From: a virus
Reading direction: 5' to 3' (one strand)
Length of the DNA stretch: 64,000 nucleotides
IMG/VR virus record: IMGVR_UViG_3300045988_115163
Shown: positions 7,489 through 55,492 of the stretch, one piece after another
Layout of the letters: the number at the start of each line of letters is the position of its first letter
Numbering within the stretch: position 1 is the first letter of the stretch
Notes under the pieces: model-generated
The model's database searches: none
The model's input: the letters and a program-made list of their open reading frames with translations, nothing else
Told to the model about the DNA's origin: nothing
Translations under genes and position numbers: made by a program

Positions 7489-7523
7489 TTTTGTATATTT
7501 GTAAACCATTAAAAATAAAAGAC

Positions 7524-33915: not shown

Positions 33916-34305
33916 ATGGATTGGCAAAGCATCATAACGATTGTAAGTGTATTATTAGGTGGTGGTGGAGCGATTGCTCTATATAAAGCTAAACCTGAGA
34001 AGGTTTCTTATGAAATAAAGAATCTGCGTGAAATCATCGAAGAGATAAAGAAAAATCGAGATGAGGACAAAAGAGAGAATAGAGAAGAAATCGAGAGACT
34101 TAATCTTAAAATAGGAAAGTTAGAATTAAACGATGATATCAAGTCCAGAGCCATTTCAAAATGGCTCACTTGCCATTTTATACCAAGGGAAAGTAATTGT
34201 CCTGTAGCTGAATTTATCGAGAATGCAGAAAAGATTATTCAGAAGAAAACAGAACAGATTAACAATATAAAAGAAAAGAGAAATAATGAGCAAGCAATTA
34301 GTTAA
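33916..34305 (+). CDS. membrane-anchored coiled-coil protein
   Basis: N-terminal TM helix IITIVSVLLGGGGAIALY followed by a charged helical region. Overlaps the fibre start by 20 nt. Confidence 0.5.
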   Translation: MDWQSIITIVSVLLGGGGAIALYKAKPEKVSYEIKNLREIIEEIKKNRDEDKRENREEIERLNLKIGKLELNDDIKSRAISKWLTCHFIPRESNCPVAEFIENAEKIIQKKTEQINNIKEKRNNEQAIS

Positions 34306-43300: not shown

Positions 43301-46300
43301 TCCAGTATGAATATTTATGAAATATGGATATATGAATATAATACGACTGCGAATGCTTCTGTCATTACAATTGGTGCATATAATTATAATGGTGGTGGAA
43401 CTGCAAGTAGTGCGAAATGGGTAAATATTGGATACCATACAAAAGGTGCTTACAGTAAAGGTGTACGTTTAGCATATAACGGTAGTAAATGTGTTATTCT
43501 ATTAGGAACTACGGCTACTAAATGGTATTGCCCCAAAGTATATCTAAAAACAATTTATACAGGACATGGTAATCAGACTATTTGGGGAGGAACTTCTACC
43601 ATCTCTTTGATTACTTCGGAGACCGGATACACCAATATTGATACACCCGCTAGGATGGATGAGTTCTTCGGAGATACATCGGTAACAGGCAGACTTGCAG
43701 TAACCGGTGCAGGACACTTTGGGTACACTTATACCACAATGACAGCGGGTATTAATGTTAAGGGTGATAGCGCAACAACGGGTATCTCTATCTATGATGG
43801 TACGGGAAATACTGCTCGTTTATACCGAAAAGGGGATATTCTATATATTACCAGAGGCGGTAATGATAACGCTGGTCTTCTTATGAATACAGCCGGAAGT
43901 ATATATCCCGGAACAAATAATGCTTTGGCAAATGGAACAAGTTCTAATCGCTGGTCAAACGTATATACCCAATTACTTAACGTAGCAGGTCTGGCAACGA
44001 CTTCAAGAATACTTGCTTCTGACGAAATACAATCAACCTCAGCTAAGGCTTTCCGTGCCATTTATGGTAGCTATGGCTTTTTCATATATAACGATGGTAA
44101 TTCCTCCTATTTTATGTTGACTGCCAAAGACGACCAGTATGGAACTTACAATAGTTTAAGACCCCTGTATATAAATAACAGTACCGGTGTTGTAACTATG
44201 GAAAATGGTACAAACATTAGAGGTATTCTAAACGTAACAAATACTACAGAAGCTACCGCAACTACTGTTGCCGCTATAAAGACAGCAGGTGGTATTGGAG
44301 TCGCTAAACAGTTGAGAGTTGGCGGTGCTGTAACTTTCAGTTCTACTCTCAGTGTTACAGGTCAGATTACTGCATCCGGTGGACTTCGGATTGGCAACTA
44401 CTACCTGAAATCTACAGCGGACGGATTGGCACTTACTCACGTAACTACCGGAACGGTTGCTAACTTCTACGCTACTGGTGAAGTTTCTGCGGGTGGTGTA
44501 GGTTCAGGCGGTTCAGGCGGTGGCGGTGGACTAATCGAGAATGTGTATGGATATAGCAAATTGAATGGAGAGTATAAAGATACCGACCTCAACAACACAT
44601 TCAATGCTTATACCATTGCACAAATCAATAAGCGGGTAGTTAGTCTGGAAGGCGGTTCTGCATTGACTGTAACGACTACCGGTTCAGGTAATGCAGTGAC
44701 TTCGGTTGCCAAGTCCGGTACGGCTATTACCGTAACAAAGGGTACTACCTTTGTTGATATTACAAATACCCAAACTATTGGAGGAACAAAAACGTTCTCT
44801 TCATCTATACGAATGGGACGAAGTAGTCTTCATTATGTTAATAACTCAACGTCCAACAATGCTACAGGATTACATTGGAAGACAGCTAACTATGCAGCCA
44901 CTCAATTTGGTATTGGTTGCTTCACCACAAACAATGCTTCTCCGAGAGGATTTATCGGTTGGACTTCTGAGCCGTGGAATGTTGCAAATAGCTTAACGGT
45001 ATCTGAGACCTCTTTGACCTATAAAGGTAATGCAATCCTTCATGCTGCCAACTATAATACTTACGCTCCGACGAAAACGGGTGGTGGTGCTTCCGGTTCT
45101 TGGGGCATATCAATTACTGGCAATGCGGCTACCGCCACTACAGCTACTAAACTTGGGACAGCTACCATTGGCGCAGCGAATAAACCCATTTATCTGAACG
45201 CAGGTACTCCAACGGCACTCTCATCAACAGTAGGTGATAGCACTGTTCCGGCTTACCTAAATGCTGGTACGGTTACTGCCTGCTCATGGGGATTAGCCGG
45301 AGCTTCTGGAAAGCGTGCAAGAAAGAGTGGATATATAACTAGCAGTACTTCGGGGTTGGCTAGCTATTGGGGAAAGATAGCTTCCTTCAATTGGGGTGAT
45401 ACATCAAACGGTAGAGATATAACTCTTTATATACATTCTGCATTCAATAGTTTGTGGGGAACTGTTGTTATAAGAACTAGATGGAGTAGTGCAACCTCTA
45501 CTGTTATTGATTTTAGAATAATAAACGGTAATATTCCAACTAGCAGACTTCGATTGTATTATGATGTTTCATCTAAGGATAATGCTGTAACTTTGTGGGG
45601 AGACGTAGCTAGTCAATGGGGAGTATTTAATACATACGTATTGTCTGAAACGACAAGAACAAGTACTGAAATTGGCGATGTCACATTATATACTACATCG
45701 TTTACTACTGCTCAAACAGTGCCGACAAGTACGTATAAAGAACCAACTTATCTTACCATTCGCAATAATGCTGCTACTTCTGATGTTGCAGATAAGTTAG
45801 GGACTTCAACGGTTGGTTCTGGGATTAAGCCGATTTACCTAAATGCGGGAACGGCTACCGCTTCTACTTCAACTGTTGGTGCAGCCAATAAAGGTGTGTA
45901 CCTGTCAAGTGGTACTATTACTGCAATGTCTTCTACAGTCGGTTCTACAACTGTACCAGTGTATATGAATGCAGGAGCGATAACTGTTTGTAGTACTACA
46001 CTTGGAGTGAGTATCACCGGTAATGCAAAAACAGCTACTACTTTACAGACCACCCGTAAGATATTTAGCCAACCTTTTAGTGGCGCAGGTGACGTTGCCG
46101 GACAAGCGTTCGTATATGGTACTTATCAGGAGACTGCAAGTAGTAGGTATTCGAATGGTGGTCTACAAATAAGAGAGAATGGTCTAGTTGGTGATAAACA
46201 AACCGCAGATGGGTATGCTCCTGCTATCGGCTTCCATTGGGAAAACAGAATCGGTGCGAGCTTGATATTAACGACTTCGGGTTTCAAATTTATGAACTAC

Positions 46301-49300
46301 GCGTTTACTGGCTACCAGAATGTATATGGTATATTTAAAGGTAATGCCGATTCTGCAACTCAGGTATATAGTACACTGACCAATCCGACAACCGGTACTT
46401 GGTATGTGATTCCATTCCATACTGGTGCTTCAACGACAAATAAATTATTATTAAATAATAATGGGATACAGTACTATTCGGTAGAAGGAACGGCTTCTGC
46501 GCAGGGAGAGGCACTGATACAGATAGGAAATTCCACCGCTACCGGAACTGCTGGTAACAAGAGAGGACGTTTAAGATTATATAGTTCTTCATCCGGTTGG
46601 GCGGATTTCACTCTAACTGCTACAACAGGTAATTATACTCTCACTCTTCCTGCTGCTACCGGAACTGTAGCTCTAACTTCGAGCAACGTTGCTTCGGCTA
46701 CTAAGTTGCAGACTGCCCGCACTCTCTGGGGACAGAGCTTCAACGGTACGGCAAATGTGAGTGGAAGTTTGACCGGAGTAGGAAATATAACTGCCAGCGC
46801 CGGCATAAATATCATAAGTACAGGAGAGAACAATATTGGTATCTTACGTGGTGGTTCAGATGCTACGGCAGTAGTACTTAATGCTATAGCCTTTAAACCT
46901 TATGATGCTGCAACAAATAAACTGAATCTCGGAACATCGACAGCTAGATGGTTAGGCGTTTATGCCAATATAGGAAACTTCTCTAGTACTGTCACGGGTA
47001 CTCGATTTATCTCTACTGTTGCTACCGGAACAGCACCATTGACTGTATCTTCTACTACGGTGGTTACCAATCTGAATGCTGACATGGTAGATGGCATTCA
47101 CTCATCTAATATCCCGTTAGAATACGATGCTAGCTATAAACCAACTGGTACTACTGCAAGATGGATTAGAATCGCTTACTTTGACTATAGTAGTGCAAGT
47201 TATAGTTGGTCAGGCACATTTGCAATAACTAATACTTATGAAAATGATGAAAATAAAGGTTTAATATTTACCGTATCAACTGCACATGGTACTACTTCTC
47301 CTGTAATCACACAAATAGGAGGTTCTGGCGGAGTATTCACTTCCATTAGAATTGTTAAGGATACAACTACGGTATATCCTACTACAGCAAAGGTGTATTT
47401 GGAAGTATATTACAATTCAACTTCTGCGGCTAATAATGTTTACGTATCATATAAACCTGCAAATAGAGCAATTGGTAAATGGACGCTGTACACTACTTAT
47501 ACTGCGGGTAGTATTCCTACTGGTCACACTGCTATAGCTCAACTATATACTACTTCCGGTCTTTCTACGACTGCTAATTTGCGGGTACAAGGCGTAGCTG
47601 TAATTTTAGGTGCTACTAATCATAATGATAGACTGGATATTCAATCAGATGGCAAGATAGTTCCCCACTCAACAGCTACCAGACGGTCAGGCGTATATGG
47701 TGTATATGACTCTGCGAAGATTGGTCACATTTGGTCTATGGGAACTAATTATATGATTGCCGATGATGGTTCTGGATTTGGTAATCTATACGGATTTGCA
47801 TATCAGTATTCTTCAAGTCTTAGAGCCATTGGACACCAAGCAGTTTGGTGTGTTAATGGAAATCCAAGTGTTGCCATAGGATATAACTTCTGGGTAGCTA
47901 ACGCTGCAACAATCGGTGACACTTTAACTGTTACCGGAGCAGGCTCGGTAAATACCCTAACCATCAAAAATACAGAAGCAGTTGGGCATCTTAAATTTTC
48001 AAGAGGTAGCTTTAATTACATCACTGCTCCGGCTAGTGGAACAATTGCATTTATAGTAAATGGTCAAGCGGTTGGTGAAGCGACGGCTGACCTGATTATT
48101 CAAAATGGGGTTCTAAAAGCGGGTGCAGCGAATGCTACCGCTTTAGGACAAGATACTTGCAGATGGTCAAACATGTACTCTGTACTTTTGAATGTAAGTG
48201 GAGTAGCTACCTTGTCTTCTACGGTGAACATCGCAGGAGTACTGAATGCTAACAACGCTACGGACGCTACTAGCACAACGGCTGCGGGAGCAGTGTTCGA
48301 TGGTGGAGTAGGCATTGTGAAACAGCTTCGAGTGGGCGGAAATGTAACTATTGGCGGAAATGTAACTTTTGCAACCAGTGGTCTACTATCAGTACCTTAT
48401 TCTGGCGGACAATGGATTTCATTAGCTACCCGAACTAATCTTATAGCAGGCAATCAGAATACCTCAGAAGCTAGTGCACACGCATTATACCGAGTGAAGT
48501 CTTTTGCTGGGGATGCAGTAGTATTTGGAGGATTGAAAAACTCCATCGGATTTTACGGATTCTATAAAGCTCGTATTGATTCGGGTGATAACAGCTATGA
48601 TTGGAGAACAGTATGGGATAGTACTACGGGTAAATTATTACATAGTAAGGCATTTGAAGTATCCGGTGCGGTTACGTTCCGTAGTACATTAACTGTAGCT
48701 TCTACTGGATTGTTCAACTTGTCTACCGATGCAACCAGTACAACTGCCGCTGCGGTAAGAATTGTAGGTGGTTTAGCTGTTGGCAAGCAATTGCGAGTGG
48801 GTGGTGCGGCTACATTAAGCTCTACACTATCAGTGAGCAGTACGCTTAATGTAAGTGGAGTAGTAAACGCAAATAATGCAACCGATGCGACCAGTACCAC
48901 AGCAGCAAGCCTTGTTTGTGATGGCGGTGTCGGAATTGTTAAGCAGTTAAGAGTAGGTGGAGCAACCACGCTTAGTTCTACTCTCTCCGCAGCCGGAATT
49001 GTTTCCTTTACGAATGCAACTGATGCGACCAGCACGACTGCTGCGGCTGTGAAAGTCACCGGAGGACTTGGAGTAGCTAAACAACTAAGAGTAGGTTCAA
49101 ACGCTGTATTCACCAAAGGTATTTACATCAATGGCAATACAACGGGAGATGAATCTATCACGTTAGGTACATCTGGGGATAAAAAGATAAAGATGGGTGC
49201 AGGTGGTTCTCCCGGGACTAGATGGTCTGAAATCGCATTCTTCCCGAACTTTGCAAACAATGGTGGATTTACCGATATCAATCTGAATATACAGGCAGAA

Positions 49301-49756
49301 GGAACTATCCAGATGTCTTCGCAAGCGAAGTTTATATGGATATCCGGTGGAAACATTGCTGCATCCGGTGAAGTATCCGCTGGTTCTACTTCTGACCGGA
49401 ATCTAAAGAAGAACTTCTCTTTGGAAGACTATCAGCAAAGAGTACTAGACCTCGGGATGGTACAAGACTTTGAATATCGTGAAGAAGAGATGAAGCGTGC
49501 AGTCCGGACTTATAAGCCCGGACGACATACCTCATTAATCGCACAGGACATCAAATCTTGTACTTCAATGGTGTCCAAAGACAAAGATGGATATTTGAAG
49601 ATTAATCCGCTAGACAAAGAGTTCCTCTTCACCGTTGTAGGTGCGGTTCAACTCAATGTCCTTGGATTGCGTGAGGTGAAATCCGAAGTTGAAATATTGA
49701 AAGATGAAATAAGAGAGCTAAAAAAGAGAATAGAATATTTGGAAAGTTTAAAGTAG
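34286..49756 (+). CDS. giant modular tail fibre or tail-tip protein (5156 aa)
   Basis: Uninterrupted ORF with fibre-type repeats: KLGTATVGS..P.YLNAG, ATKLQTART..G.SFNGTAN, and ATDATSTTAA..GG.G..KQLRVGG. It also has Ala-rich helical tandem repeats and a C-terminal S74-type chaperone domain. Confidence 0.85.
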   Translation: MSKQLVKIFTYVDGVNDTPFPNEENQLIIPEYSFSDIRMGSVNLTATAMYPTCLDDKWVTGKQYADFRGERYFIVKTPSSSKSNDDVRYKHDIEFVSERNILETIYFYDVVSDNTSVDRYVSNSTKVLFYGDVHELVARLNYSLEYSQVSYRVVVDAGITSEVKQVSLEDVFVFDAIQEIFNIFELPFYFVGKTCHVGFTDNAITHTFRYGKDYELLSINKTNANYKITNRVTGTGSSDNIQFYYPNPSNDRAEIEAAGGKWITPAGTLMPPIYRDTDGAERFYNAINKRYINPETGEYYVFENEFTTASQKEQIVTFEDIKPTIKNTLNAAGLRIDEIIDVAFDKDDNDEVDESTGDYVHSYFYVKLNRFSGDYGFNLFEQPIVGSDASIVMTSGNCNACTFQIGVIEVEEDGKTVFKNPVQVDKNGNIAEGNYADKVKPNNIQANQQDTTQNEVWIALKKDNTTFGMVMPNKNGNIRPSYGDSFVITNIDMPQTYIYKAENELEEAILKYMANNNSEKFTFSIKLSRIFLAENPAIEALINSSARIDLEYNGKYHQLYVSSYTYRSDSEVLPEITIELADTLTISKNSIQTSIDSVKQDIMNTIGGVDFLKQGLKYFLRKDTEDIARFFISFLRGIKIGNYVSGGDIGGIFAVDGNGKTFIETDFLKVRMKAYFETLEIINTGSIAGRQIITPGGSIKCIKVVDREEIINEDGEKEEKVWNFYRCYFLAEQDGVKVENRFRKNDQALSQDFNIKEGVYENVSNHYYWRLVVGVGDDYIDLSKTDADTKSDAPAIGDVICQLGHRDDKVPERQNAMIFSAVDLYSPSLTMYAGINSYSYVNKDYISYGVDKTTNKAFMNVYGDTYIGDRNRTSYMEFKTGKGLKIKGQLEVGSTIGNGSTIEGALDKATQDAIDAATEDLTNYAKEVTEILNNIQYQIDGQIESFFEKYSPTLTNKPAVDWTTEELKKQHANDTFTNIDTGESWKWVKDGTTWKWSVIEDTATLKALAAASKAQDTADGKRRVFVAKPTNEQVYDVGDLWVNATYGTTYHNDILRAKTAKKAGEAFNISHWELASKYTDDTKANEAAEAAAAAQEAAEQAATAVDNLNTYVDGAFKDGVIEESEAQAIEKYINIVDNAKKTTDAAYTKLYANTYLTGAAKTGLKSAKDKLDIATTNLINSINTAIADGQTTVAEKNDVDAKFAAYNTANEAFSTAVEVANGAIQDLLKSYSDQAKEAAVAAQAAADAAQAAADSASDAVDDLNGYVDGAFKDGVIDEAEAKAIEKYINVVNGSKAATDATYTKLYSNKYLLGTAKENLKTAKDKLDVATTALLTSIQSAIADGKTTAEEKAAVDTKYADFNKANEDFNTAIEAANLSIQNMLKSYADAALAAAEAAQTSADAAKTAADNAAGAVGDLNDYVDGAFKDGIIDASEAQAIEKYINIVNNTKGEVKATFDKLYANVYLTGAAKTGLNSSYTALNTAITNLLNSINTAIADGKTTASEKADVDLKYASFNTAYASFNTAVETANKAIQDKLKTFADDAKALAESAQAVADAAKDRLDSWAEDGVISPTEKQGIKDEIARIKADKDNISAGYELYNLGEATAYNTAYTDYYNSLLVLSDTTKETIEIPTDFATKQTKYYTERTAALNAIASASKSAVDAAQAAADAAKSRLDSWAADGVISPAEKQSIKDERARILADKADITTGYTRYNLGTPTDYNTAYTAYDTALAALSKDTPEVITIPSDFATKQKNYYTKRTAAISAIDAATKSNADAAAAAAAKAQEDIDNVKTDINKINSDVAGLKNFTDDAFADGVVDRGEASAIGAYLKSIATVKADVDKSYTEVYANPLLAGTAKTTLNTTYTAFGKAVEELTTVIEAVVEKGIADATDRASVNGKYDAFNTKYGAFIAALNAANTYIQDQIESKAENALTEAVSYRYLKKAFSEYTIIEGGLVQNSLNVLGYTNDKKEFVVQAGMNGIYDASQTHGGIAAWYGGSMKDYFDYTDLDRPKDVAKGVDRMDGTGYRANGNLWWDENGEVHADPLSFFVGTETVGGLLASFQVVMTNKKPDYLIPKVPFQDLTISNNLTVGGDIILKDGILKWDAANNAFYVEKKDGSIASFYATGEVSAGGAGSGGSGGGGGLIENVYGSSSLGDEFSDSDLNNTFNAYSINQIYLDVKNLKSGAAVSLVVNGTGTVLTNIVKTGSTITATKGNLAFSSLTSKPTTIAGYGITDAYTKTQADGKYVLKSGSNMTGTLNWVGADANIYPILLGTNHYIGIDGSAGSSMLHWDGTRTHVGSLNGSVAIRSNATDLIHNYNGTGYIILDARNYNNYAPKKDGTGAGGNWAINVLGWAHRLHQALGNKTAEQVFTDNGVYYYQVSSAEDTGYPTDYGHGLMLQKSSGDTLTSSQAVLDIFTPTSGTNLVYLRTGIGNGTKITWQAFQQILHTGNYTSLITKLGTATVGSTVKPFYLNAGVPTAFTTTVGSASLPVYMNAGSITACSTTLGVSITGNAATATKLGTATVGSNTKFFYLNAGTPTASNASIGTGTHPIYLNGGVFTASTSTVGSASRGIYMTGGLLTAMSATVGSASLPVYMNAGTITQCSTTLGVSITGTAPRLTTTELTNQDLNSYTYTNYSGKLYYAGGSNTTTNVPSGVGAYGLMVWRIATGYTGHLMFDSAGDFRARFHNGTTWSAWDKLAYITDNVASATKLQTARTINGTSFNGTANITTANWGTARNLTIGGAVKSVNGSANVSFSLNEINAAYGRNVTYTGTTTAQGWYRLASTGQNINTTNSLFFISVTVSGQHSTFLLQVSTNYGNNPSLIQLGGSNYSTASIDQFRLVYHTTYSGHYGYLEVRSRGAMTDATFNVFLVGRANTTWTLSTALTAGSIPEGYTSKTLTPASASIVAPTFRGALVGNVTGNVTGNLTGNASTATSLQTARTLWGQSFNGTANITGTLLGVESLVARSGRINNFLGYFDYSGNPATGTICITLPNGWTSSMNIYEIWIYEYNTTANASVITIGAYNYNGGGTASSAKWVNIGYHTKGAYSKGVRLAYNGSKCVILLGTTATKWYCPKVYLKTIYTGHGNQTIWGGTSTISLITSETGYTNIDTPARMDEFFGDTSVTGRLAVTGAGHFGYTYTTMTAGINVKGDSATTGISIYDGTGNTARLYRKGDILYITRGGNDNAGLLMNTAGSIYPGTNNALANGTSSNRWSNVYTQLLNVAGLATTSRILASDEIQSTSAKAFRAIYGSYGFFIYNDGNSSYFMLTAKDDQYGTYNSLRPLYINNSTGVVTMENGTNIRGILNVTNTTEATATTVAAIKTAGGIGVAKQLRVGGAVTFSSTLSVTGQITASGGLRIGNYYLKSTADGLALTHVTTGTVANFYATGEVSAGGVGSGGSGGGGGLIENVYGYSKLNGEYKDTDLNNTFNAYTIAQINKRVVSLEGGSALTVTTTGSGNAVTSVAKSGTAITVTKGTTFVDITNTQTIGGTKTFSSSIRMGRSSLHYVNNSTSNNATGLHWKTANYAATQFGIGCFTTNNASPRGFIGWTSEPWNVANSLTVSETSLTYKGNAILHAANYNTYAPTKTGGGASGSWGISITGNAATATTATKLGTATIGAANKPIYLNAGTPTALSSTVGDSTVPAYLNAGTVTACSWGLAGASGKRARKSGYITSSTSGLASYWGKIASFNWGDTSNGRDITLYIHSAFNSLWGTVVIRTRWSSATSTVIDFRIINGNIPTSRLRLYYDVSSKDNAVTLWGDVASQWGVFNTYVLSETTRTSTEIGDVTLYTTSFTTAQTVPTSTYKEPTYLTIRNNAATSDVADKLGTSTVGSGIKPIYLNAGTATASTSTVGAANKGVYLSSGTITAMSSTVGSTTVPVYMNAGAITVCSTTLGVSITGNAKTATTLQTTRKIFSQPFSGAGDVAGQAFVYGTYQETASSRYSNGGLQIRENGLVGDKQTADGYAPAIGFHWENRIGASLILTTSGFKFMNYAFTGYQNVYGIFKGNADSATQVYSTLTNPTTGTWYVIPFHTGASTTNKLLLNNNGIQYYSVEGTASAQGEALIQIGNSTATGTAGNKRGRLRLYSSSSGWADFTLTATTGNYTLTLPAATGTVALTSSNVASATKLQTARTLWGQSFNGTANVSGSLTGVGNITASAGINIISTGENNIGILRGGSDATAVVLNAIAFKPYDAATNKLNLGTSTARWLGVYANIGNFSSTVTGTRFISTVATGTAPLTVSSTTVVTNLNADMVDGIHSSNIPLEYDASYKPTGTTARWIRIAYFDYSSASYSWSGTFAITNTYENDENKGLIFTVSTAHGTTSPVITQIGGSGGVFTSIRIVKDTTTVYPTTAKVYLEVYYNSTSAANNVYVSYKPANRAIGKWTLYTTYTAGSIPTGHTAIAQLYTTSGLSTTANLRVQGVAVILGATNHNDRLDIQSDGKIVPHSTATRRSGVYGVYDSAKIGHIWSMGTNYMIADDGSGFGNLYGFAYQYSSSLRAIGHQAVWCVNGNPSVAIGYNFWVANAATIGDTLTVTGAGSVNTLTIKNTEAVGHLKFSRGSFNYITAPASGTIAFIVNGQAVGEATADLIIQNGVLKAGAANATALGQDTCRWSNMYSVLLNVSGVATLSSTVNIAGVLNANNATDATSTTAAGAVFDGGVGIVKQLRVGGNVTIGGNVTFATSGLLSVPYSGGQWISLATRTNLIAGNQNTSEASAHALYRVKSFAGDAVVFGGLKNSIGFYGFYKARIDSGDNSYDWRTVWDSTTGKLLHSKAFEVSGAVTFRSTLTVASTGLFNLSTDATSTTAAAVRIVGGLAVGKQLRVGGAATLSSTLSVSSTLNVSGVVNANNATDATSTTAASLVCDGGVGIVKQLRVGGATTLSSTLSAAGIVSFTNATDATSTTAAAVKVTGGLGVAKQLRVGSNAVFTKGIYINGNTTGDESITLGTSGDKKIKMGAGGSPGTRWSEIAFFPNFANNGGFTDINLNIQAEGTIQMSSQAKFIWISGGNIAASGEVSAGSTSDRNLKKNFSLEDYQQRVLDLGMVQDFEYREEEMKRAVRTYKPGRHTSLIAQDIKSCTSMVSKDKDGYLKINPLDKEFLFTVVGAVQLNVLGLREVKSEVEILKDEIRELKKRIEYLESLK
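37546..38940 (+). repeat. three tandem 465-nt (155-aa) Ala-rich helical repeats inside the fibre gene
   Basis: The motif (D/G)xLNxYVDGAFKDG(V/I)I recurs at 37601, 38066 and 38531, an exact 465-nt period. A degenerate fourth copy lies near 39650-40090. Confidence 0.8.
38941..39625 (+). repeat. two tandem 342-nt (114-aa) repeats inside the fibre gene
   Basis: RLDSWA(E/A)DGVISP(T/A)EKQ(G/S)IKDE recurs at 38975 and 39317. Confidence 0.75.
41665..42150 (+). repeat. array of about 20-aa VGS..P.Y(L/M)NAG..T fibre repeats
   Basis: About six consecutive units. Similar clusters lie at about 45148-45290 and 45793-46040. Confidence 0.7.
49391..49753 (+). other. C-terminal intramolecular chaperone / autoproteolysis domain (peptidase S74-like)
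   Basis: S-D-R-N-L-K has the Ser...Lys(+5) dyad spacing. It is followed by NF..EDY...GRHTSLIAQDI...DGYLKINP and a terminal coiled coil. Confidence 0.7.
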
Positions 49757-50870: not shown

Positions 50871-50911
50871 AAAAGCCCTGCGTCAATCTGTTCCGATGCA
50901 GGGCTTTTTTT
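50871..50911 (+). terminator. rho-independent terminator abutting the left inverted repeat
   Basis: Stem AAAAGCCCTGC / GCAGGGCTTTT with a T7 run. The T-tract overlaps the start of IR-L. Confidence 0.6.
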
Positions 50912-50957
50912 ATGCACAGACTCTAACATCAACAAGTGGGCGAGGTACAAACCGGTA
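50908..50957. repeat. inverted repeat, left copy (IR-L, 50 bp)
   Basis: TTTTATGCACAGACTCTAACATCAACAAGTGGGCGAGGTACAAACCGGTA is the exact reverse complement of 53290-53339. Confidence 0.9.
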
Positions 50958-52259
50958 TGTTTACCTACTGTTCACAAAAACGATACTTTCGATAATGATA
51001 CAAAAATGTGGGGAGAGGTTCGTTCTGATGTATCTACTTGGGATAGACCTTGGTTTTATGGTTCTATAGCGTATCCGGTGTATATTGTGCCCATAATAAG
51101 TAGTCTTAGTGATTTAGGAAGTAATGGTTCTCCTAATGAAGCTGCAATATGGAAATATAATCCTCCATTTGGATATCCACATGCTCCTTTCCGAATGACA
51201 GATTTTTTAGGATATAATCACAATGCTTTCCCTCCTGTATATGTTCGTATGTCTGACCAAATTATAATTAATGGTACTTATGATACAACCATTGAAGAAT
51301 GGGGAACAGATAAAAGGTCGGGAGAATGGGAGTTTAAAGAAATATTAGAAGTTATAAATACCAATACACAAGTATATGCCGGTATTGCGATTAGAAATAT
51401 TACTAGAAACGTTCTAGTAGGATATGTAAAAACAGAACCATTAACAGGCACTCTAGCGGATTATGAAAATGGTGTTTTCCGTTTAAATCCAGCTAGCGGT
51501 TCTCCAATTGCAGATGGCGGATTTGGGCATAAGGTATATGCTAATGATTTAATAGATGTCTACATATTCCTATCTGTTTCTCCCGGAGAAACAGATGTTG
51601 ATTCAATGCTAAAATACAGTGCCTATGTAGATTCTGATTCAGAGTGTTATAAAAGATACATAGTTGGTCATAACACTATTACCGTTGTTGTAAAATACGC
51701 TTTTGCTGAATTGACAAGTACTATACAACAATTTATTTCTGGTAAGGTGTACTATGTAAATGACAATGATTATGGTGGAGATGGAAGCGTCTATAAAGTT
51801 ACTAGCTATATTGAAGCTCTTTATGGTTCTGTAAATATAGATAAAACTCCTAATAGTGATTATAGTAGTTTCCGTATTTATCTTTCTGGTGATTGCATTG
51901 GAACAAAATCAAATGGAGAGACATTCTATTCATCGGCTGTACCTATAATTACATATCTAACGAAAACCAATGGAAATTTCAATAATGCAAATTTCAAATA
52001 CACATTGAATGGAACAGAAGATATGAAATTCATTGGGTATAATTCTGTAAGGGATGCACAGTCACAGGTTAACGGTACGGAATTTATCGGATGTCCTATT
52101 TATGATAGTATTGAATCCAACAATGTGGATGCAGATAATGTTGGAGTATTATCACAAAGAAGAATTGAGCTTAGATGTAGCGCAGTAAGTAGCAAGCAAT
52201 ACTATATGATAAGTATGCAAAGCAAGAATGATAACAATGTTGTTACTATTTTACCTTAA
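50958..52259 (+). CDS. silent alternative C-terminal cassette of the RBP-like gene (no own N-terminus or ATG)
   Basis: Homologous to 52303-53427 and 54215-55492 (GYPHAPFRMTDFLGYNHNAFPP versus GYPNSPFRMRDFDGYYHDSTP). Upstream of IR-L there is only terminator sequence, and the track start is a TTG inside it. Confidence 0.55.
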   Translation, partial: CLPTVHKNDTFDNDTKMWGEVRSDVSTWDRPWFYGSIAYPVYIVPIISSLSDLGSNGSPNEAAIWKYNPPFGYPHAPFRMTDFLGYNHNAFPPVYVRMSDQIIINGTYDTTIEEWGTDKRSGEWEFKEILEVINTNTQVYAGIAIRNITRNVLVGYVKTEPLTGTLADYENGVFRLNPASGSPIADGGFGHKVYANDLIDVYIFLSVSPGETDVDSMLKYSAYVDSDSECYKRYIVGHNTITVVVKYAFAELTSTIQQFISGKVYYVNDNDYGGDGSVYKVTSYIEALYGSVNIDKTPNSDYSSFRIYLSGDCIGTKSNGETFYSSAVPIITYLTKTNGNFNNANFKYTLNGTEDMKFIGYNSVRDAQSQVNGTEFIGCPIYDSIESNNVDADNVGVLSQRRIELRCSAVSSKQYYMISMQSKNDNNVVTILP

Positions 52260-52262
52260 ACA

Positions 52263-52298
52263 TATTCTAAACCCATCGAACTCGATGGGTTTAGAATA
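52263..52298. terminator. perfect bidirectional hairpin between the two cassettes
   Basis: TATTCTAAACCCATCGA-AC-TCGATGGGTTTAGAATA. Confidence 0.6.
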
Positions 52299-52302
52299 CT
52301 CA

Positions 52303-53427
52303 TTATAACCATTGTCCGGTTTCAAAATTAAACTTTCTGGTAAATATATTGCCAGCATTGCCTACGGTTTGAACGCCTCTTATGGATATTTCCCAAATGG
52401 CATTATAGGTAGGTAAGAGTAGATTAGTTCCCGGGTCTACCATAAATGCAGCGGAAGAAAGACCTTGCACTATTTGTACTTTTGAACCATATTCATATAC
52501 ATCTCCGGTTTCTTCATCGGATATTTCTATACTCATGGTAAATTGCAATTGACCACCATATTCATTTTTAACCGTTCCGGTCATGTAATAAATCTCATAT
52601 ACATAAGAACCGCTAACCAAGTTCTTTTGATATTCTATATTTAAGGTAGTTACTGAAATATATTGTGCAATAAAATTATATGTTTCTAATAAGACTCTTT
52701 TATGTCCCTTCCCTTCTTCATATTCCAAATAGTACATACTATTTACTTCTATAGGTGGGGTTTCAGTAGGAGCACCAGTAAATGAGTATTGGCTCAATAT
52801 AGCATACACATCTACTTGCTCACCAGCCAGCCATGTATCCCTAACAGGAATGGTTAAATCTTCTGGTGGAAACCATTCAGCAAGAGTTTTTTTAGTCGTC
52901 TTCCATATTGTACCTTTAGTTGGATGAACCACCAATAAGCCGGGAAACCAAGATACTTCATTGCCGTAACTAAATAAATCAAGCATTTCTATATTACCTT
53001 CTTTCCATGAAGTAGCATAATCATCAAATGCAATTATGACATAGTTATTGCTATCCGCTTTATTTAGATAGGCCTTATCCGGTATTCCTATTTCAATAGA
53101 TGGTGTAGAATCATGGTAGTATCCATCAAAATCTCTCATCCTAAATGGCGAATTTGGATATCCTTCTGGACGTTGATATATCCATGCCATATTAGAACCA
53201 ATAGAGCTTGTATTTACAAATGGAATAGAAAAGCCATATTTTACTTTTTTCCGTTCTTCTTCTGTAATCGGGCTGTACGTTTTGTACTTTACCGGTTTGT
53301 ACCTCGCCCACTTGTTGATGTTAGAGTCTGTGCATAAAACACCTACTTTTCTTGAACTGCTACCTATAGCCTGACCAATGTCTTTAGTGGTGACAGGTTT
53401 AGTAACAATACCATTACTATACCCCAT
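52303..53427 (-). CDS. RBP-like / tail-fibre-like protein, currently expressed variant
   Basis: ATG at 53427 after AAAGGGGGTG. The first 29 codons lie outside IR-R. Paralog of 54215-55492. Confidence 0.6.
   Translation of the reverse strand: MGYSNGIVTKPVTTKDIGQAIGSSSRKVGVLCTDSNINKWARYKPVKYKTYSPITEEERKKVKYGFSIPFVNTSSIGSNMAWIYQRPEGYPNSPFRMRDFDGYYHDSTPSIEIGIPDKAYLNKADSNNYVIIAFDDYATSWKEGNIEMLDLFSYGNEVSWFPGLLVVHPTKGTIWKTTKKTLAEWFPPEDLTIPVRDTWLAGEQVDVYAILSQYSFTGAPTETPPIEVNSMYYLEYEEGKGHKRVLLETYNFIAQYISVTTLNIEYQKNLVSGSYVYEIYYMTGTVKNEYGGQLQFTMSIEISDEETGDVYEYGSKVQIVQGLSSAAFMVDPGTNLLLPTYNAIWEISIRGVQTVGNAGNIFTRKFNFETGQWL
53290..53339. repeat. inverted repeat, right copy (IR-R, 50 bp)
   Basis: Exact reverse complement of 50908-50957. 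Encodes (V)LCTDSNINKWARYKPV in the same frame as IR-L. Confidence 0.9.
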
Positions 53428-53683
53428 AGTCACCCCCTTTCGTAGCAACGCATCCGGTAACTAGCACTATAGAGTGAGAGCTATCGAATGCGTTTACATG
53501 TACATCTCCATCAATTATGATGGCGCAACTGATATCATATTGGGTGTCTAGTTCCTCATCATAGCCTGAAATTATATTTCCTGATAACTTTCCTTCCGAA
53601 ATTAAATTTCCTTTAACTACAAGGGTAACTCTCTCTCTCTCTCTCTCTCTCTCTAAGGGGAGGTGTAAATTATTTTTAATCAT
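53417..53683 (-). CDS. hypothetical 88-aa protein carrying an (AG)13 tract
   Basis: Its ATG overlaps the stop of the AP2 gene (ATGATTAA). Its stop overlaps the RBP start by 11 nt. Codons 11-18 read ERERERER. Confidence 0.45.
   Translation of the reverse strand: MIKNNLHLPLERERERERVTLVVKGNLISEGKLSGNIISGYDEELDTQYDISCAIIIDGDVHVNAFDSSHSIVLVTGCVATKGGDYGV
53629..53654. repeat. dinucleotide microsatellite (CT)13 / (AG)13
   Basis: 26 nt of perfect CT repeats on the plus strand. Confidence 0.95.
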
Positions 53684-54212
53684 CGTATTCTACTTTATAA
53701 TTAACAATAGCATTATACACTTTCTCAGGAATAACATCTTTATATTTATCCGCTGTCTCCTTAAAGTATTTCTCCCTTTCTATTTTATACGCATCGAATG
53801 CCTCTTCTGGACTATTAAAATATCCAAGGTCTAAACGTCCTCTTTTACCATTAATAACCTTTTTTACTCTAGCCCTGAATTTACCACAATGAAAGTCTAC
53901 ACCTACTGGATATTTCCCTCTAATTTTATTTGATTTAGTGAATAAACTGTTTATAAAAGCAGGAACAAAACAGCAATATTCAGGACAATAAACACGATTA
54001 CCCTTTTTTAACATGTCTTTATCTATCTGGAAACCATCAATGTAGTTATTTTTAAACCATTCAAAGAAACATTCAAAATCCATCCACTCTTCACATATAG
54101 TTACTCCCCTATAAGCATACGTTCTTGAACCATAGTCTTTTAGAGAGCATCTATATCTCATTGCATTCCATACTCTTTTTGCCTTTACTCTAAGTTCTTT
54201 TTCCTTTTCCAT
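53676..54212 (-). CDS. AP2-domain DNA-binding protein (homing-endonuclease-associated type)
   Basis: GVDFHCGKFRARVKKVINGKRGRLDLGYFNSPEEAFDAYKIEREKY fits the AP2 fold pattern. The N-terminus WNAMRYRC...YRGVTICEEW is common in phage AP2 proteins. Confidence 0.6.
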   Translation of the reverse strand: MEKEKELRVKAKRVWNAMRYRCSLKDYGSRTYAYRGVTICEEWMDFECFFEWFKNNYIDGFQIDKDMLKKGNRVYCPEYCCFVPAFINSLFTKSNKIRGKYPVGVDFHCGKFRARVKKVINGKRGRLDLGYFNSPEEAFDAYKIEREKYFKETADKYKDVIPEKVYNAIVNYKVEYDD

Positions 54213-54214
54213 AA

Positions 54215-55492
54215 TCACGAAATTGTAATAGGTACATAATTGTGGTAATCAATATCTTCAATGAACATCTTCTTTTTATCCGATTTGCGGATAAGGTAGA
54301 ACGTAACATTCCCTTTAGGGAATCCATCCGAACCGGTAGACCCGTCAGCGAATGAGTGCATGATGTAGTTTGCCACCGGTTGCGGACTGTAGGTAATTTT
54401 AGCAGTTACGCTGCTTATACCCGTTCCACTTGCCGTCGCACTACCGGACAGACCCTCAAATACCAAATCGTTGGATATGACACCGCTAGGTAGTTTAAAT
54501 TGTCCATTCCATGAACCGCAATATAACTCAATCGTATATTGGGATAAATCCAAAGTAACAGAGTTTCCTTTGGAGCTATGGAAGTAGATTCGGAAGGTGA
54601 TAACCCATGTTCCCGGTACAGACGCTTTGTTCGCCAACAGGTCAACCTCGTCGATTGTGACTGGCTCAACATAGGCTTCTTCATTGGTAAACAGTCTAAG
54701 ATATTCCATCTTATCGCCTGCATCTTCAAACACAAGCGGAATAAGCGGAGTGATTTTAGATAAACCGGAATTTTCTACATTGCTGGGGATTGTCGTTTCC
54801 TTTACTAAAGTAAGATATACAGATAGTTCAACCTGCTTTCCAGCATCTAACAGCCAACTGTTGATATCCATTTGGTAGTAGTCCGAGCTTCCCCATTTAT
54901 GGTTAGGCGGACTCAATACAAATTGATAGTTCGATGGCAGGGTATCCTTCGTTCGATATATGAACGCAAGACGATACTCTGGGTTAGTTGCACTAGCTGG
55001 GTTGTACTTGAAGAATTCCGAAAAAGGAATATCTGCATTAGCCTGAGAGTAATACAACCGATACATGGACTGTCCATCCTTGTTTATCAGTTGATTCATG
55101 TTGAAGTGGATGGGAGCATCTGCATAATGATTGTATCCATCAAAATCAAGAGACCTTGCCCATTCACCGCTTTTAGGAGGATTATAAATCCATTTTGCTA
55201 TGCCGTCCACTGTACCAAAAGTGGGAAGAGAGGAAACAATAGCTGTTCCGTCAGTCAAGAGGAATCCGTAGTTGTCTCCCATATCTCCCTTAAACCACTC
55301 TGGGTCGTCTTCGTGACTAGGCTTAGAATATCGAACCGGTTTTTTCTTAGAAAACATATTGATTTGCTTATGCGTATTGTAGCACGCATAGGCTAAAGCA
55401 TATCCATCTTCTCTTCTGGAAATTCCAAGAACAGGGTATATGTCTTTAGAGACTTGAACCGGTCTGGTAATGATACCATTCTCGTGCGCCAT
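54215..55492 (-). CDS. RBP-like / tail-fibre-like protein, third paralog
   Basis: ATG after GGGAGG. The N-terminus MAHENGIITRPV...KKKPVRYSKP parallels MGYSNGIVTKPV...RYKPVKYKT. LDFDGYNHYADAP is conserved. Confidence 0.6.
   Translation of the reverse strand: MAHENGIITRPVQVSKDIYPVLGISRREDGYALAYACYNTHKQINMFSKKKPVRYSKPSHEDDPEWFKGDMGDNYGFLLTDGTAIVSSLPTFGTVDGIAKWIYNPPKSGEWARSLDFDGYNHYADAPIHFNMNQLINKDGQSMYRLYYSQANADIPFSEFFKYNPASATNPEYRLAFIYRTKDTLPSNYQFVLSPPNHKWGSSDYYQMDINSWLLDAGKQVELSVYLTLVKETTIPSNVENSGLSKITPLIPLVFEDAGDKMEYLRLFTNEEAYVEPVTIDEVDLLANKASVPGTWVITFRIYFHSSKGNSVTLDLSQYTIELYCGSWNGQFKLPSGVISNDLVFEGLSGSATASGTGISSVTAKITYSPQPVANYIMHSFADGSTGSDGFPKGNVTFYLIRKSDKKKMFIEDIDYHNYVPITIS

What the first reader, a model, noticed from the sequence alone, without database searches (positions are those of the whole stretch)
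50908..53339. Perfect 50-bp inverted repeats bracket two opposed RBP-like C-terminal cassettes: a Mu G-segment-style inversion switch with no invertase in view
Seen in the sequence:
- 50908-50957 and 53290-53339 are exact reverse complements (50/50 nt), and identity stops abruptly on both sides.
- Both copies sit in the same reading frame of two convergent paralogous ORFs and encode (V)LCTDSNINKWARYKPV.
- The minus-strand gene (52303-53427) has an ATG, a GGGGGTG ribosome-binding-like sequence and 29 codons outside the repeat.
- The plus-strand ORF (to 52259) has no homologous N-terminus. Upstream of its repeat copy there is only a terminator (50871-50911), whose T-tract runs into the repeat.
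- A perfect bidirectional hairpin (52263-52298) separates the two 3' ends.

Inference: inversion would fuse the fixed 5' end (53340-53427) to the alternative cassette of about 430 codons. This is the logic of the Mu G, P1 C and p15B Min tail-fibre switches and of Bacteroides shufflons. I recognised no serine or tyrosine recombinase anywhere in the 64 kb. The enzyme would therefore have to be encoded elsewhere in the phage or supplied by the host.
Basis: partly seen in the sequence, partly recalled or inferred. Interest (0 to 1): 0.9.

Follow-up and report, generated by a model that had tools for sequence, protein, structure and literature searches.

The report
Invertible tail-protein cassette switch, gut phage
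An uncultivated ~86-kb human-gut phage of Bacteroidales flips a 2.4-kb DNA segment between two perfect 50-bp inverted repeats. The flip joins one fixed gene start to either of two alternative tail-associated protein bodies, and both orientations are common in public metagenome assemblies of near-identical phages.

Summary
Positions 50908-50957 and 53290-53339 are a perfect 50-nt inverted repeat, the only long one in the window. Both copies lie in frame in two convergent paralogous ORFs.

The inversion reading is supported by data. The predicted fusion protein (N-terminus of the minus-strand gene, repeat peptide, plus-strand cassette) exists in public assemblies as P0001 (479 aa). In those contigs exactly 50908-53339 is inverted relative to otherwise 98-100% identical flanks.

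Six distinct contigs carry the window orientation and five the flipped one. L020 and L022 differ by the inversion and 7 substitutions over about 10.8 kb. At least three flips appear independent. Several contigs end exactly at a repeat.

"No invertase in view" holds only for the window. An identical genome encodes one 244-aa serine recombinase 309-1043 nt beyond the window's left edge. It is not Gin/Hin-like, is not adjacent, and does not track the switch across phages.

Repeat arms of variable length (50 to about 115 nt) that co-vary between strains suggest gene conversion. Homologous recombination (phage RecT or host RecA) is therefore an equally serious candidate.

A second, distant phage group has the same architecture with a 42-nt repeat. 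This is a new variant of the Mu G / P1 C principle, in a different protein family and phage type.

The parts
50871..50911 (+). Terminator hairpin plus U-run. It ends the plus-strand genes (105-aa and 89-aa ORFs downstream of the giant tail-fibre gene). It insulates whichever cassette sits at the left, silent position.
   Evidence: (I22) and 66: -25.5 kcal/mol, z = -5.6.
50908..50957 (.). Left inverted repeat (IR-L). Encodes (V)LCTDSNINKWARYKPV in frame with the silent cassette.
   Evidence: I1, 50/50. Identical in 9 strains of both orientations.
50910..52259 (+). Cassette B: 449 codons including the repeat-encoded 16. It is promoterless and start-less in this orientation. It is expressed as the 479-aa fusion P0001 in flipped genomes.
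   Evidence: Stop-free in all 9 strains.
52263..52298 (.). Perfect symmetric hairpin between the two cassette 3' ends. It lies inside the invertible segment, so it follows the expressed cassette in either orientation.
   Evidence: I7; z = -10 and -8.5.
52303..53289 (-). Variable part of cassette A, expressed in this window as part of the 374-aa protein (= P0013).
   Evidence: Present as a silent 367-aa ORF in flipped contigs.
53290..53339 (.). Right inverted repeat (IR-R), inside the expressed gene.
53340..53427 (-). Fixed 5' end: ATG at 53425-53427 plus 29 codons (MGYSNGIVTKPVTTKDIGQAIGSSSRKVGV). It lies outside the segment and is shared by both fusion products.
   Evidence: (P0001 and P0013 share it).
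53431..53437 (-). GGGGGTG ribosome-binding-like sequence 3 nt upstream of the ATG.
   Evidence: read directly from the sequence.
53417..53683 (-). 88-aa gene whose stop overlaps the start of gene A, which suggests translational coupling. It contains a hypervariable (CT)13 tract at 53629-53654.
53676..54218 (-). HNH homing-endonuclease-like gene, present in some strains and absent in others.
   Evidence: phrog_953, E = 5e-56. Absent in L017, L019 and L270.
54215..55492 (-). Paralogue C (425 aa). It has the same N-terminal domain family, is not invertible, and is the first gene of the operon.
34286..49756 (+). Giant 5156-aa tail-fibre protein with a Gp34_trimer domain. In distant relatives the cassette-family gene follows such a giant gene directly on the same strand.
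8363..9280 (+). RecT-family single-strand annealing protein. It is the candidate driver for the homologous-recombination alternative.
   Evidence: PF03837.
1..1 (+). Marker only. The sole site-specific recombinase of the phage (244 aa, PF00239) lies just outside the window, at window-equivalent coordinates -1043 to -309 on the plus strand.
   Evidence: L010 is 100% identical to window 1-10709.

Best explanation
**What is shown.** Window 50908-53339 is a genuine, recurrently inverting DNA segment in an ~86-kb circularly assembling phage from human-gut metagenomes.
- The host is inferred to be Bacteroidales.
- The last gene of a minus-strand, tail-associated operon has a fixed start: RBS, ATG and 30 codons.
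- Recombination between the two 50-nt repeats places either cassette A or cassette B behind that start. The repeats lie in the most conserved motif of the protein family.
- In this window cassette A is expressed as a 374-aa protein. In flipped genomes cassette B is expressed as a 479-aa protein.
- The unselected cassette sits behind a terminator with no start codon.
- A symmetric hairpin inside the segment follows the expressed cassette in either state.

**What is inferred.**
- The two products share an N-terminal anchor and differ in beta-sandwich C-terminal bodies.
- The switch therefore probably changes the adhesion or receptor specificity of a tail-fibre-associated protein. This would be bet-hedging against the variable surfaces of Bacteroidales hosts.

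**What is unresolved.** The strand-exchange enzyme is not identified. My estimates for the two leading candidates are:
- about 0.35-0.4 for the phage's only site-specific recombinase, a divergent 244-aa serine recombinase encoded 309 nt beyond the window's left edge and acting in trans over more than 30 kb;
- about 0.35-0.4 for homologous recombination or gene conversion across the repeats, by phage RecT or host RecA.
For: **Inversion is real.**
- The fusion protein P0001 exists.
- In L001 exactly 50908-53339 is inverted between flanks that are 97.9-99.5% identical to the window.
- Five flipped and six unflipped distinct contigs were found.
- Among the cluster members listed (15 of 25 and 15 of 29), contig counts are: the fused 479-aa form of B, 22; the silent 472/417-aa forms of B, 30; expressed A (374 aa), 39; silent A (367 aa), 15.

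**Inversion is recurrent and recent.**
- L020 (flipped) and L022 have 0 mismatches in the 2432-nt segment, 0 in the 3520-nt right flank and 7 in the 4852-nt left flank.
- Orientation is scattered relative to flank distances.
- L001(-) and L072(+) share the same divergent A allele.

**Assembly breaks at the repeats.**
- NODE_92 (83,555 bp) starts at window 53290 and ends at 50958.
- L025, L274 and L077 end at the inner edge of the repeat.

**Both cassettes are maintained.**
- Both are stop-free, and the segment is exactly 2332 nt, in 9 strains.
- Synonymous/non-synonymous changes are 11/8 for A and 4/3 for B.

**The architecture recurs.**
- A phage group about 35% identical has a paralogue, an expressed gene and an opposed cassette with a 42-nt perfect repeat at the same motif.
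- Within that group L105 is inverted relative to L091.

**Tail context.**
- A giant Gp34_trimer protein lies nearby, and homologues directly follow giant proteins in relatives.
- 2093 representative clusters match, and most of the 150 listed share only the N-terminal ~110-130 aa.
- The C-terminus is a confident beta-sandwich model.

**Recombinase candidate.**
- PF00239, E = 5e-12, with WRRVST and DRFRN motifs conserved.
- It is the only recombinase hit in gene calls that cover the genome.
Against: - No read-level data were available. Within-sample mixing is therefore only suggested by contig breaks. These can also arise from repeat-induced graph ambiguity at small k or low coverage; NODE_92 has 4x coverage.
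- Function as a receptor-binding protein is untested. Pfam and PHROGs give no hit. Foldseek gives only generic Ig/FN3/arrestin-like matches with TM about 0.15-0.27.
- Against the serine recombinase:
  - a sister strain (IMG/VR 111613) keeps it at 97% identity but has a single non-invertible gene with no repeat;
  - the family has more than 7780 members, yet the switch appears in only 2 lineages among the 195 tail-family loci scanned (79 + 116);
  - an 88-kb group-2 contig with the switch is not among the family hits;
  - its closest folds are a pneumococcal resolvase-family protein and the TP901-1 and IS607 catalytic domains, not Gin/Hin;
  - the repeat has no dyad-symmetric core, and there is no third site.
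- Against homologous recombination: 50 nt is short, and the inner repeat boundary is the same in all strains.
Confidence: 0.8

Rival explanations
1. Inversion has no dedicated invertase. It results from homologous recombination or gene conversion between the two copies of the conserved N-terminal coding stretch. The drivers would be the phage's RecT-type annealing protein (window 8363-9280) and/or host RecA during replication. Selection by alternative hosts then amplifies each orientation.
For: - Repeat length differs between strains while the inner edge is constant: 50 nt in the window, 67 nt in L019, 69 nt in L017, 53 nt plus one mismatch plus 13 nt in L271, and up to about 115 nt of N-terminal remnant in L077.
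- Three repeat alleles differ by 3-5 substitutions between strains but by 0 between arms.
- In L017 the identity tract begins at a junction between two N-terminal allele types, which is a gene-conversion signature.
- The repeat sits on the most conserved motif of the family, where paralogues would share the longest identity.
- The repeat has no dyad-symmetric core.
- The recombinase does not co-vary with the switch.
- RecT is present.
Against: - 50 nt is near the lower limit for efficient RecA-type exchange.
- In this scan no other rearrangement between short repeats was seen in these genomes.
- Orientation frequencies close to 50:50 and flips between otherwise identical genomes suggest a high rate, which is more typical of site-specific systems.
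- Long perfect repeats also occur in bona fide invertase systems. From my own knowledge, the phage P1 C segment has about 0.6-kb repeats.
Confidence: 0.37
2. A host-encoded invertase flips the phage segment during infection. Bacteroidales genomes carry many serine and tyrosine invertases that act in trans on multiple loci.
For: - No recombinase lies within or next to the segment.
- Trans-acting global invertases are enriched next to programmed inversions in Bacteroidetes (PMC9881135).
- Group 2 has the switch without a family-A1 recombinase hit.
Against: - The repeat lacks the Mpi-type ACGT-containing core motif. I recalled that motif from memory and did not test against a database.
- The two phage groups have unrelated repeat nucleotide sequences. 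One host enzyme would not be expected to recognise both.
- The phage would depend on the enzyme repertoire of each host strain.
Confidence: 0.12
3. The arrangement is static. It would be an old inverted partial duplication of a tail gene, and the two 'orientations' in databases would be assembly artefacts or two fixed lineages rather than an active switch.
For: - No read-level evidence was available.
- Contig breaks at repeats can be caused by repeats alone.
- Some strains have only one cassette (L270, L095).
Against: - Contigs named k113, k127 and k141 (k longer than the repeat) include both orientations.
- Orientation does not follow flank phylogeny, and at least 3 independent flips are seen among 9-11 near-identical strains.
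- The silent cassette stays intact and indel-free in every strain.
- The same design evolved or persisted in a second phage group.
Confidence: 0.05

Closest known systems
Phage Mu G segment / phage P1 and P7 C segment / plasmid p15B Min / e14 P region (Gin, Cin, Min, Pin serine invertases)
   Same: - Inverted repeats sit at the constant/variable junction inside a tail-associated gene.
- A fixed promoter, start codon and N-terminus are joined to one of two opposed C-terminal cassettes.
- The unexpressed cassette is silent and intact.
- Both orientations are found in natural populations.
   Different: - The protein family is unrelated: there are no S/U-type or tail-fibre-assembly Pfam hits.
- Each cassette is a single ORF with no accessory gene.
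- No invertase gene is adjacent. The only serine recombinase is more than 30 kb away and is not Gin/Hin-like by fold search.
- No gix/hix-like 12-2-12 core was found.
- The repeat length varies between strains.
- The phage shows no integrase or lysogeny module in the recorded gene calls, whereas Mu and P1 are temperate.
Haloarchaeal virus phiCh1 / phiH1 / ChaoS9 invertible tail-fibre region (Int1 tyrosine recombinase). The comparison rests on my own knowledge; ChaoS9 appeared.
   Same: Inversion exchanges the C-terminal parts of two convergently oriented tail-fibre genes in a virus, and this changes adsorption.
   Different: That system has clusters of short direct and inverted repeats and an embedded tyrosine recombinase gene. 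Here there is one pair of 50-nt repeats and no embedded recombinase.
Gene-altering programmed inversions and shufflons of Bacteroidales and other bacteria (Milman et al. 2023, PMC9881135), and the R64 shufflon (Rci)
   Same: - In-frame inverted repeats overlap paralogous coding sequences of specificity-determining genes.
- Tail-fibre genes are among the enriched targets.
- Trans-acting invertases occur in Bacteroidetes.
   Different: - Those cases are chromosomal, prophage or plasmid loci, usually with a neighbouring recombinase.
- This locus is in an apparently non-integrating gut phage.
- It has only two cassettes and no multi-segment shuffling.
- No tyrosine recombinase is recorded anywhere in the genome.
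Recombinase-independent genome isomerisation between inverted repeats, e.g. the cyanophage A-1(L)-group ~30-kb invertible region (bioRxiv 10.64898/2026.02.14.705889)
   Same: Two isomers coexist, and no dedicated recombinase has been identified. Homologous recombination is proposed as the driver.
   Different: Those repeats are 400-700 nt and flank about 30 kb of whole genes. Here the repeats are 50 nt, lie inside a coding sequence, and cause an in-frame exchange of a protein's C-terminus.

Membership tests
Gin/Hin/Cin/Pin-type invertible tail-fibre switch | Inverted repeats flank a segment at the constant/variable junction of a tail gene, with opposed alternative C-terminal cassettes. | tested here: met
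Gin/Hin/Cin/Pin-type invertible tail-fibre switch | Both orientations occur in nature, with junctions inside the repeats. | tested here: met
   (assemblies only, no reads).
Gin/Hin/Cin/Pin-type invertible tail-fibre switch | A Gin-family serine invertase gene lies adjacent to the segment. | tested here: not met
   - No recombinase hit appears in the neighbouring genes or anywhere in the window.
- The sole PF00239 gene lies about 52 kb away within the linear map, or about 31.6 kb around the circle.
- Its best fold matches are not Gin/Hin.
Gin/Hin/Cin/Pin-type invertible tail-fibre switch | A 26-bp crossover site made of two imperfect 12-bp half-sites around a 2-bp core (gix/hix/cix consensus). 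| tested here: not met
   The dyad scan of both repeat contexts found at best 7 of 10 matches, and those extended into unique sequence. The consensus itself was recalled from memory, not taken from a database.
Gin/Hin/Cin/Pin-type invertible tail-fibre switch | A Fis-dependent recombinational enhancer. | not testable with these tools
   No model was available, and Fis is not expected in Bacteroidota.
Gin/Hin/Cin/Pin-type invertible tail-fibre switch | Homology of the switched protein to Mu S/S' and U/U' tail-fibre and assembly proteins. | tested here: not met
   No Pfam or PHROGs hits for A, B or C. Foldseek gives only generic beta-sandwich matches.
Shufflon (Rci-type) | Multiple segments separated by several copies of a short sfx repeat, with a tyrosine recombinase. 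| tested here: not met
   There are only two repeat copies and no third site in about 83 kb. No PF00589 hit appears in the gene calls.
Small serine recombinase (PF00239), for the candidate enzyme outside the window | A catalytic domain with the nucleophilic Ser in an RVS(T) motif and the D-R-x-x-R motif. | tested here: met
   - Pfam E = 5e-12, 46.6 bits against a cutoff of 23.3, covering residues 8-140.
- S11, R8, D79, R80 and R82 are invariant in 12 homologues.
- Foldseek hits to serine recombinase catalytic domains have probability 1.00.
Small serine recombinase (PF00239), for the candidate enzyme outside the window | A C-terminal helix-turn-helix DNA-binding domain (HTH_7-like). | tested here: inconclusive
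   The C-terminal 100 aa is confidently helical (pLDDT about 90) but has no Pfam or PDB match.
Small serine recombinase acting as the invertase of this switch | Co-occurrence of the enzyme with the invertible segment across related phages. | tested here: not met
   - The enzyme is present without the switch in IMG/VR 111613.
- Group-2 contig 153864 (88 kb) has the switch but is not among the family hits.
- The family is far more widespread than the switch.
Phage receptor-binding / tail-fibre tip protein | Location in the tail module, with a conserved N-terminal anchor and a hypervariable C-terminus. | tested here: met
Phage receptor-binding / tail-fibre tip protein | Demonstrated virion location and receptor binding. 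| not testable with these tools
   This needs virion proteomics and adsorption assays.

The most novel reading that the evidence does not exclude
The ~245-aa serine recombinase family is widespread in Bacteroidales phages (more than 7780 homologues) and has no assigned role. In this reading it is a trans-acting invertase that flips tail-adhesin cassettes from more than 30 kb away. Apparently virulent, highly prevalent gut phages would then run programmed host-range phase variation that mirrors the capsule phase variation of their hosts.

An alternative reading is equally novel. The phage would exploit its own RecT-type recombination on a selected 50-nt coding repeat, giving an invertase-free programmed switch.
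Probability: 0.35. Interest if true: 0.78.

Novelty: new variant of a known kind. Interest (0 to 1): 0.64.

Why it matters
- Bacteroidales evade phages by inverting promoters of capsule and surface-protein loci. A matching inversion switch in an abundant, uncultivated gut phage would let the phage hedge its bets in the same way. That could help explain long-term coexistence of phage and host in the gut.
- The switch is directly testable with existing public reads, by counting junction-specific reads. It gives orientation-locked variants for host-range work once a host is found.
- It flags a conserved but unassigned phage serine recombinase family, and alternatively RecT-driven flipping, as candidates for a non-canonical inversion mechanism.
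- For virome bioinformatics, it explains recurrent contig breaks and apparent misassemblies at this locus in about 86-kb gut phage genomes.

Tried and rejected
- **megablast of the locus against GenBank phages:** no match. The terminase is only about 27% identical to Bacteroides and Parabacteroides phages, so no cultured relative exists in that collection.
- **Pfam and PHROGs on A, B, C and neighbours:** nothing except the HNH-like gene.
- **Structure of the B fusion protein:** the N-terminal 136 aa were modelled poorly. Foldseek against the PDB gave arrestin-like hits with TM 0.15, which I reject as generic beta-sandwich similarity. BFVD gave only uncharacterised gut-phage proteins.
- **phmmer of the recombinase against PDB sequences:** no meaningful hit.
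- **Search for a third copy or sub-site of the repeat in about 83 kb of reconstructed genome:** only one 17/20 chance-level match.
- **Search for inverted repeats of 20 nt or more near the recombinase gene in 49 loci:** none. There is therefore no adjacent substrate that would assign it another inversion.
- **Degenerate DNA-motif scan of IMG/VR for the N.W.RYKPV motif:** It was useful only as extra loci for the repeat scan.
- **Attempt to fetch tail loci of the 72%-identity recombinase clade using paralogue C:** it returned only close relatives. Co-occurrence in that clade remains unknown.
- **Own promoter for cassette B:** the sigma-70-type scan gave no more sites than shuffled sequence. That scan does not cover Bacteroidota promoters, so I gave it no weight.
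- **Contig breaks at the repeats as proof of within-sample mixing:** downgraded to "consistent with", because low coverage or small k can produce the same breaks.
- **Literature searches:** no description of this switch was found. The Flandersviridae/Quimbyviridae paper (PMC8008677) mentions neither inversions nor recombinases. I could not establish whether this phage belongs to either group.


Full report
**1. Observation**

The window contains a perfect 50-nt inverted repeat at 50908-50957 and 53290-53339. It is the only inverted repeat of 24 nt or more with full identity in 64 kb; the next best are 24-29 nt at 72-88%.

- Both arms are in frame in two convergent ORFs and encode LCTDSNINKWARYKPV.
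- The minus-strand ORF is gene A, 52303-53427, 374 aa. It has an ATG at 53425-53427, a GGGGGTG at 53431-53437, and 88 nt outside the repeat.
- The plus-strand ORF is cassette B, in frame from 50910 to the stop at 52259. It has no counterpart of that N-terminus. A strong terminator hairpin (50871-50911, z = -5.6) abuts the repeat.
- A perfect 17+17-nt hairpin (52263-52298) separates the two 3' ends.
- A and B are paralogues: 39% identity over the first ~120 aa after the repeat start, E = 9e-18. They are unrelated further on.
- A third paralogue, C (54215-55492, minus strand), shares the N-terminal domain.
- Gene A's start overlaps the stop of an 88-aa gene. C, an HNH-like gene, the 88-aa gene and A therefore form one minus-strand operon.

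**2. Is it an inversion switch?**

I searched about 5.8 billion proteins with cassette B.

- The best hit, P0001 (479 aa, 99% identity), begins MGYSNGIVTKPVTTKDIGQAIGSSSRKVGV-LCTDSNINKWARYKPV-CLPTVHK... This is the fixed N-terminus of gene A, the repeat peptide, then cassette B.
- Its contig, L001 (ENA ERZ27242541, k141_349406), aligns to the window with 55616-53290 and 50957-50092 collinear. Exactly 50908-53339 lies in the opposite orientation, at 98.7% identity.
- The exact protein A (P0013) lies on an 86,012-bp human-gut contig (L002). That contig is 100% identical to the window over 21 kb.

Looking up the neighbouring 89-aa protein gave a small census.

| State | Contigs |
|---|---|
| Window orientation | L018, L022, L023 |
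| Flipped | L020, L021 |
| Different silent cassette (357 and 409 aa) | L017, L019 |
| End at the repeat | L024, L025, L026 |

- Further flipped contigs are L152 (k113) and L273. Further unflipped ones are IMG/VR 119808 and OMAY01000066.1.
- Among the cluster members listed (15 of 25 and 15 of 29), contig counts are: the fused 479-aa form of B, 22; the silent 472/417-aa forms of B, 30; expressed A (374 aa), 39; silent A (367 aa), 15.
- Contigs whose names show k = 113, 127 or 141 include both orientations. That k exceeds the 50-nt repeat, so these orientations rest on sequence that spans the repeat.

**3. Is it recurrent?**

- L020 (flipped) and L022 (unflipped) come from different samples. 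They have 0 mismatches over the 2432-nt segment, 0 over 3520 nt of right flank, and 7 over 4852 nt of left flank.
- Flank distances do not sort by orientation.
- L001(-) and L072(+) share the same divergent allele of cassette A: 11 synonymous and 7-8 non-synonymous differences from the window.
- At least three independent flips are therefore needed among 9-11 closely related genomes.
- In all nine strains the segment is exactly 2332 nt between the repeats. Both cassettes are free of stops whichever one is silent. Synonymous changes are at least as frequent as non-synonymous ones. This suggests both cassettes are periodically used.

Several contigs stop at the repeat.

- NODE_92 (83,555 bp) begins at window position 53290 and ends at 50958. 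It is the whole circle minus the segment.
- L025, L274 and IMG/VR L077 end within 0-5 nt of the inner edge.
- This is what mixed orientations within a sample would produce. Low coverage (4x for NODE_92) or small k could do the same, so I treat it as supportive only.

**4. What phage, and what protein?**

- Gene calls and Pfam hits on identical or near-identical contigs cover the genome. They show a tape-measure protein (18391-24258), portal, terminase, RecT (8363-9280), DnaB, many HNH/NUMOD homing endonucleases, and the 5156-aa protein with a T4 Gp34_trimer domain.
- No integrase is recorded.
- The terminase is only about 27% identical to those of Bacteroides and Parabacteroides phages.
- Relatives of the A/B/C family in GTDB genomes are all in Bacteroidota.
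- In distant relatives (L013, L015) a B-type gene directly follows a giant 3232- or 3475-aa protein on the same strand.
- An exhaustive HMMER search finds 2093 representative clusters. Most of the 150 listed match only residues 1 to about 110-130 of A and have different C-termini. This is the modular pattern of tail adhesins.
- The AlphaFold model of the B fusion has a confident beta-sandwich C-terminal body. Structure searches return no informative match.

"Tail-fibre-associated adhesin or receptor-binding protein" is therefore an inference from context, not a result.

**5. The enzyme**

The window holds no recombinase. In contigs that carry the window's first genes, a 244-aa PF00239 protein is encoded at window-equivalent coordinates -1043 to -309.

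- L010 is 100% identical to window 1-10709. It comes from the same contig as L023, which is identical across the switch.
- The protein has the serine-recombinase catalytic domain (E = 5e-12), with the WRRVST and DRFRN motifs invariant among homologues.
- It is the only site-specific recombinase in the recorded gene calls.

That makes it the obvious candidate, but several tests go against a dedicated role.

- (a) IMG/VR contig 111613 has the recombinase at 97% identity. At the locus, however, it has a single 381-aa gene with yet another C-terminus, no second cassette and no repeat.
- (b) The family is very large: more than 7780 hits, about 245 aa each, in Bacteroidales phages and MAGs. I found the switch in only two lineages among the 195 tail-family loci scanned (79 + 116).
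- (c) The second lineage includes an 88-kb contig that is not among the family's IMG/VR hits.
- (d) Its nearest folds are a pneumococcal resolvase-family protein and the TP901-1 and IS607 TnpA catalytic domains, not Gin/Hin. The helical C-terminal domain matches nothing.
- (e) The repeat has no 12-2-12 dyad core, and there is no third site in about 83 kb.

**6. Evidence for homologous recombination or gene conversion**

- The inner edge of the repeat (...CCGGTA) is the same in all strains. The outer edge varies: 50 nt in the window, 67 nt in L019, 69 nt in L017. In L077 the silent site keeps codons 8-46 of the N-terminus.
- The window's outer edge is explained by a roughly 65-nt deletion between two TTTTAT motifs.
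- There are two N-terminal allele types: I (MGYSNGIVTKPVTTKDIGQAIGSSSRKVG) and II (MGHNNGVITSPVTTEDIRQTLGVASRQVG).
- In L017 and L271 the expressed copy is type I and the silent remnant is type II. The perfect-identity tract starts at a type I/type II junction.
- Three repeat alleles differ from each other by 3-5 substitutions, yet their two arms are identical.
- Conservative serine-recombinase exchange does not homogenise arms. Heteroduplex-based recombination does.
- The repeat also coincides with the most conserved motif of the family (C..N..W.RYKPV invariant). That is where two paralogues would share the longest identity.
- The phage encodes RecT.

I therefore rate homologous recombination about as likely as the serine recombinase. 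A host invertase is a minor third option.

**7. A second instance**

In IMG/VR contigs 153864, 163317, 163788 and 3300029722_000019, the proteins are about 35% identical to A.

- A C-like gene is followed by an expressed gene and an opposed cassette. These are flanked by a 42-nt perfect repeat that encodes YLCSNAHGKINKWS, the same motif as in the window.
- L105 has the segment inverted relative to L091. L095 lacks the second cassette.
- The nucleotide sequences of the two groups' repeats are unrelated beyond coding.

**8. Comparison with known systems, and novelty**

- The logic is that of Mu G, P1 C, p15B Min and, from my own knowledge, phiCh1.
- Membership in the Gin/Hin-type family fails on the adjacent invertase, the crossover-site structure and protein homology.
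- The papers I could search describe programmed inversions in prophage tail fibres (PMC9881135) and only tentative "viral invertons" in metagenomes (PMC13501310, a Microviridae capsid example).
- The paper that defined abundant Bacteroidales gut phage families mentions neither inversions nor recombinases (PMC8008677).
- I found no description of this switch.
- I classify it as a new variant of a known kind. It is a real, recurrent, in-frame cassette inversion in an apparently non-temperate, prevalent gut phage. The recombination mechanism is unresolved and possibly non-canonical.

**9. Verdict**

- Observation: confirmed.
- Interpretation: supported for the inversion and its consequence.
- Incomplete for the enzyme: a serine recombinase exists just outside the window but is not tied to the switch.
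- Unproven for receptor-binding function.
- Interest: 0.64.

Noticed in passing
window 53629-53654 (inside the 88-aa gene, 53417-53683, minus strand): A (CT)13 dinucleotide tract encodes an (ER)n run. Its length varies among near-identical strains: n = 8, 10, 13, 16, 20. Most steps are 3 units and keep the frame, but n = 20 in IMG/VR 119808 is out of step. Because this gene is translationally coupled to the switched gene, the tract could be a second, slipped-strand layer of variation.
   Followed up: partly
window 53676-54218 (minus strand): An HNH homing-endonuclease-like gene (phrog_953, E = 5e-56) lies between paralogue C and the 88-aa gene. It is present in the window, L018, L020-L023 and L001, but absent in L017, L019, L003 and L270. 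This is a presence/absence polymorphism of a mobile gene right next to the switch. Breaks it makes could stimulate recombination there.
   Followed up: partly
just outside the window, equivalent to -1043..-309 (L010:8497-9231): A 244-aa divergent serine recombinase with a conserved helical C-terminal domain of unknown type. It has more than 7780 homologues of about 245 aa in Bacteroidales phages and MAGs. No role is assigned, and no inverted repeats of 20 nt or more lie near it in 49 loci.
   Followed up: partly
the locus equivalent to window 50908-53339 in L017, L019, L270 and L271: At least five different C-terminal cassettes occupy this locus in sister strains: A (374 aa), B (449 codons), a 357-aa type, a 409-aa type and a 381-aa single-gene type. 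There are also two N-terminal allele types. L271 looks like a recombinant with a crossover inside the repeat. The repeat is therefore also a hotspot for cassette exchange between phages.
   Followed up: partly
L089, L090, L091, L095, L105 (IMG/VR contigs 163317, 153864, 163788, 136440, 3300029722_000019): A second phage group about 35% identical has the same switch design, with a 42-nt perfect repeat encoding YLCSNAHGKINKWS. It includes an inverted variant (L105, where the expressed ORF is only 83 aa) and a variant that lacks the second cassette (L095).
   Followed up: partly
window 34286-49756 (plus strand): A single 5156-aa ORF with a T4 Gp34_trimer hit and long internally repeated modules, for example recurring 'DLNxYVDGAFKDGVI...' blocks and 'KLGTATVG...PxYLNAG' units. 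Its length differs widely between strains: products of 1439 to 5156 aa are called, some cut by contig ends. The 91-94% identity there contrasts with 98-100% elsewhere.
   Followed up: no
window 3487/3488: Relative to the window, L008 carries about 2.9 kb and L007 about 1.5 kb of extra genes at this point. The surrounding region has NUMOD/HNH-type genes, so this is another mobile-gene polymorphism in the early region.
   Followed up: no
window 50903-50915: The junction between the terminator U-run and the left repeat is the scar of a roughly 65-nt deletion between two TTTTAT motifs. The deletion removed codons 8-30 of a 5'-truncated gene copy that is still present in strains L077, L024, L017 and L271.
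   Followed up: yes
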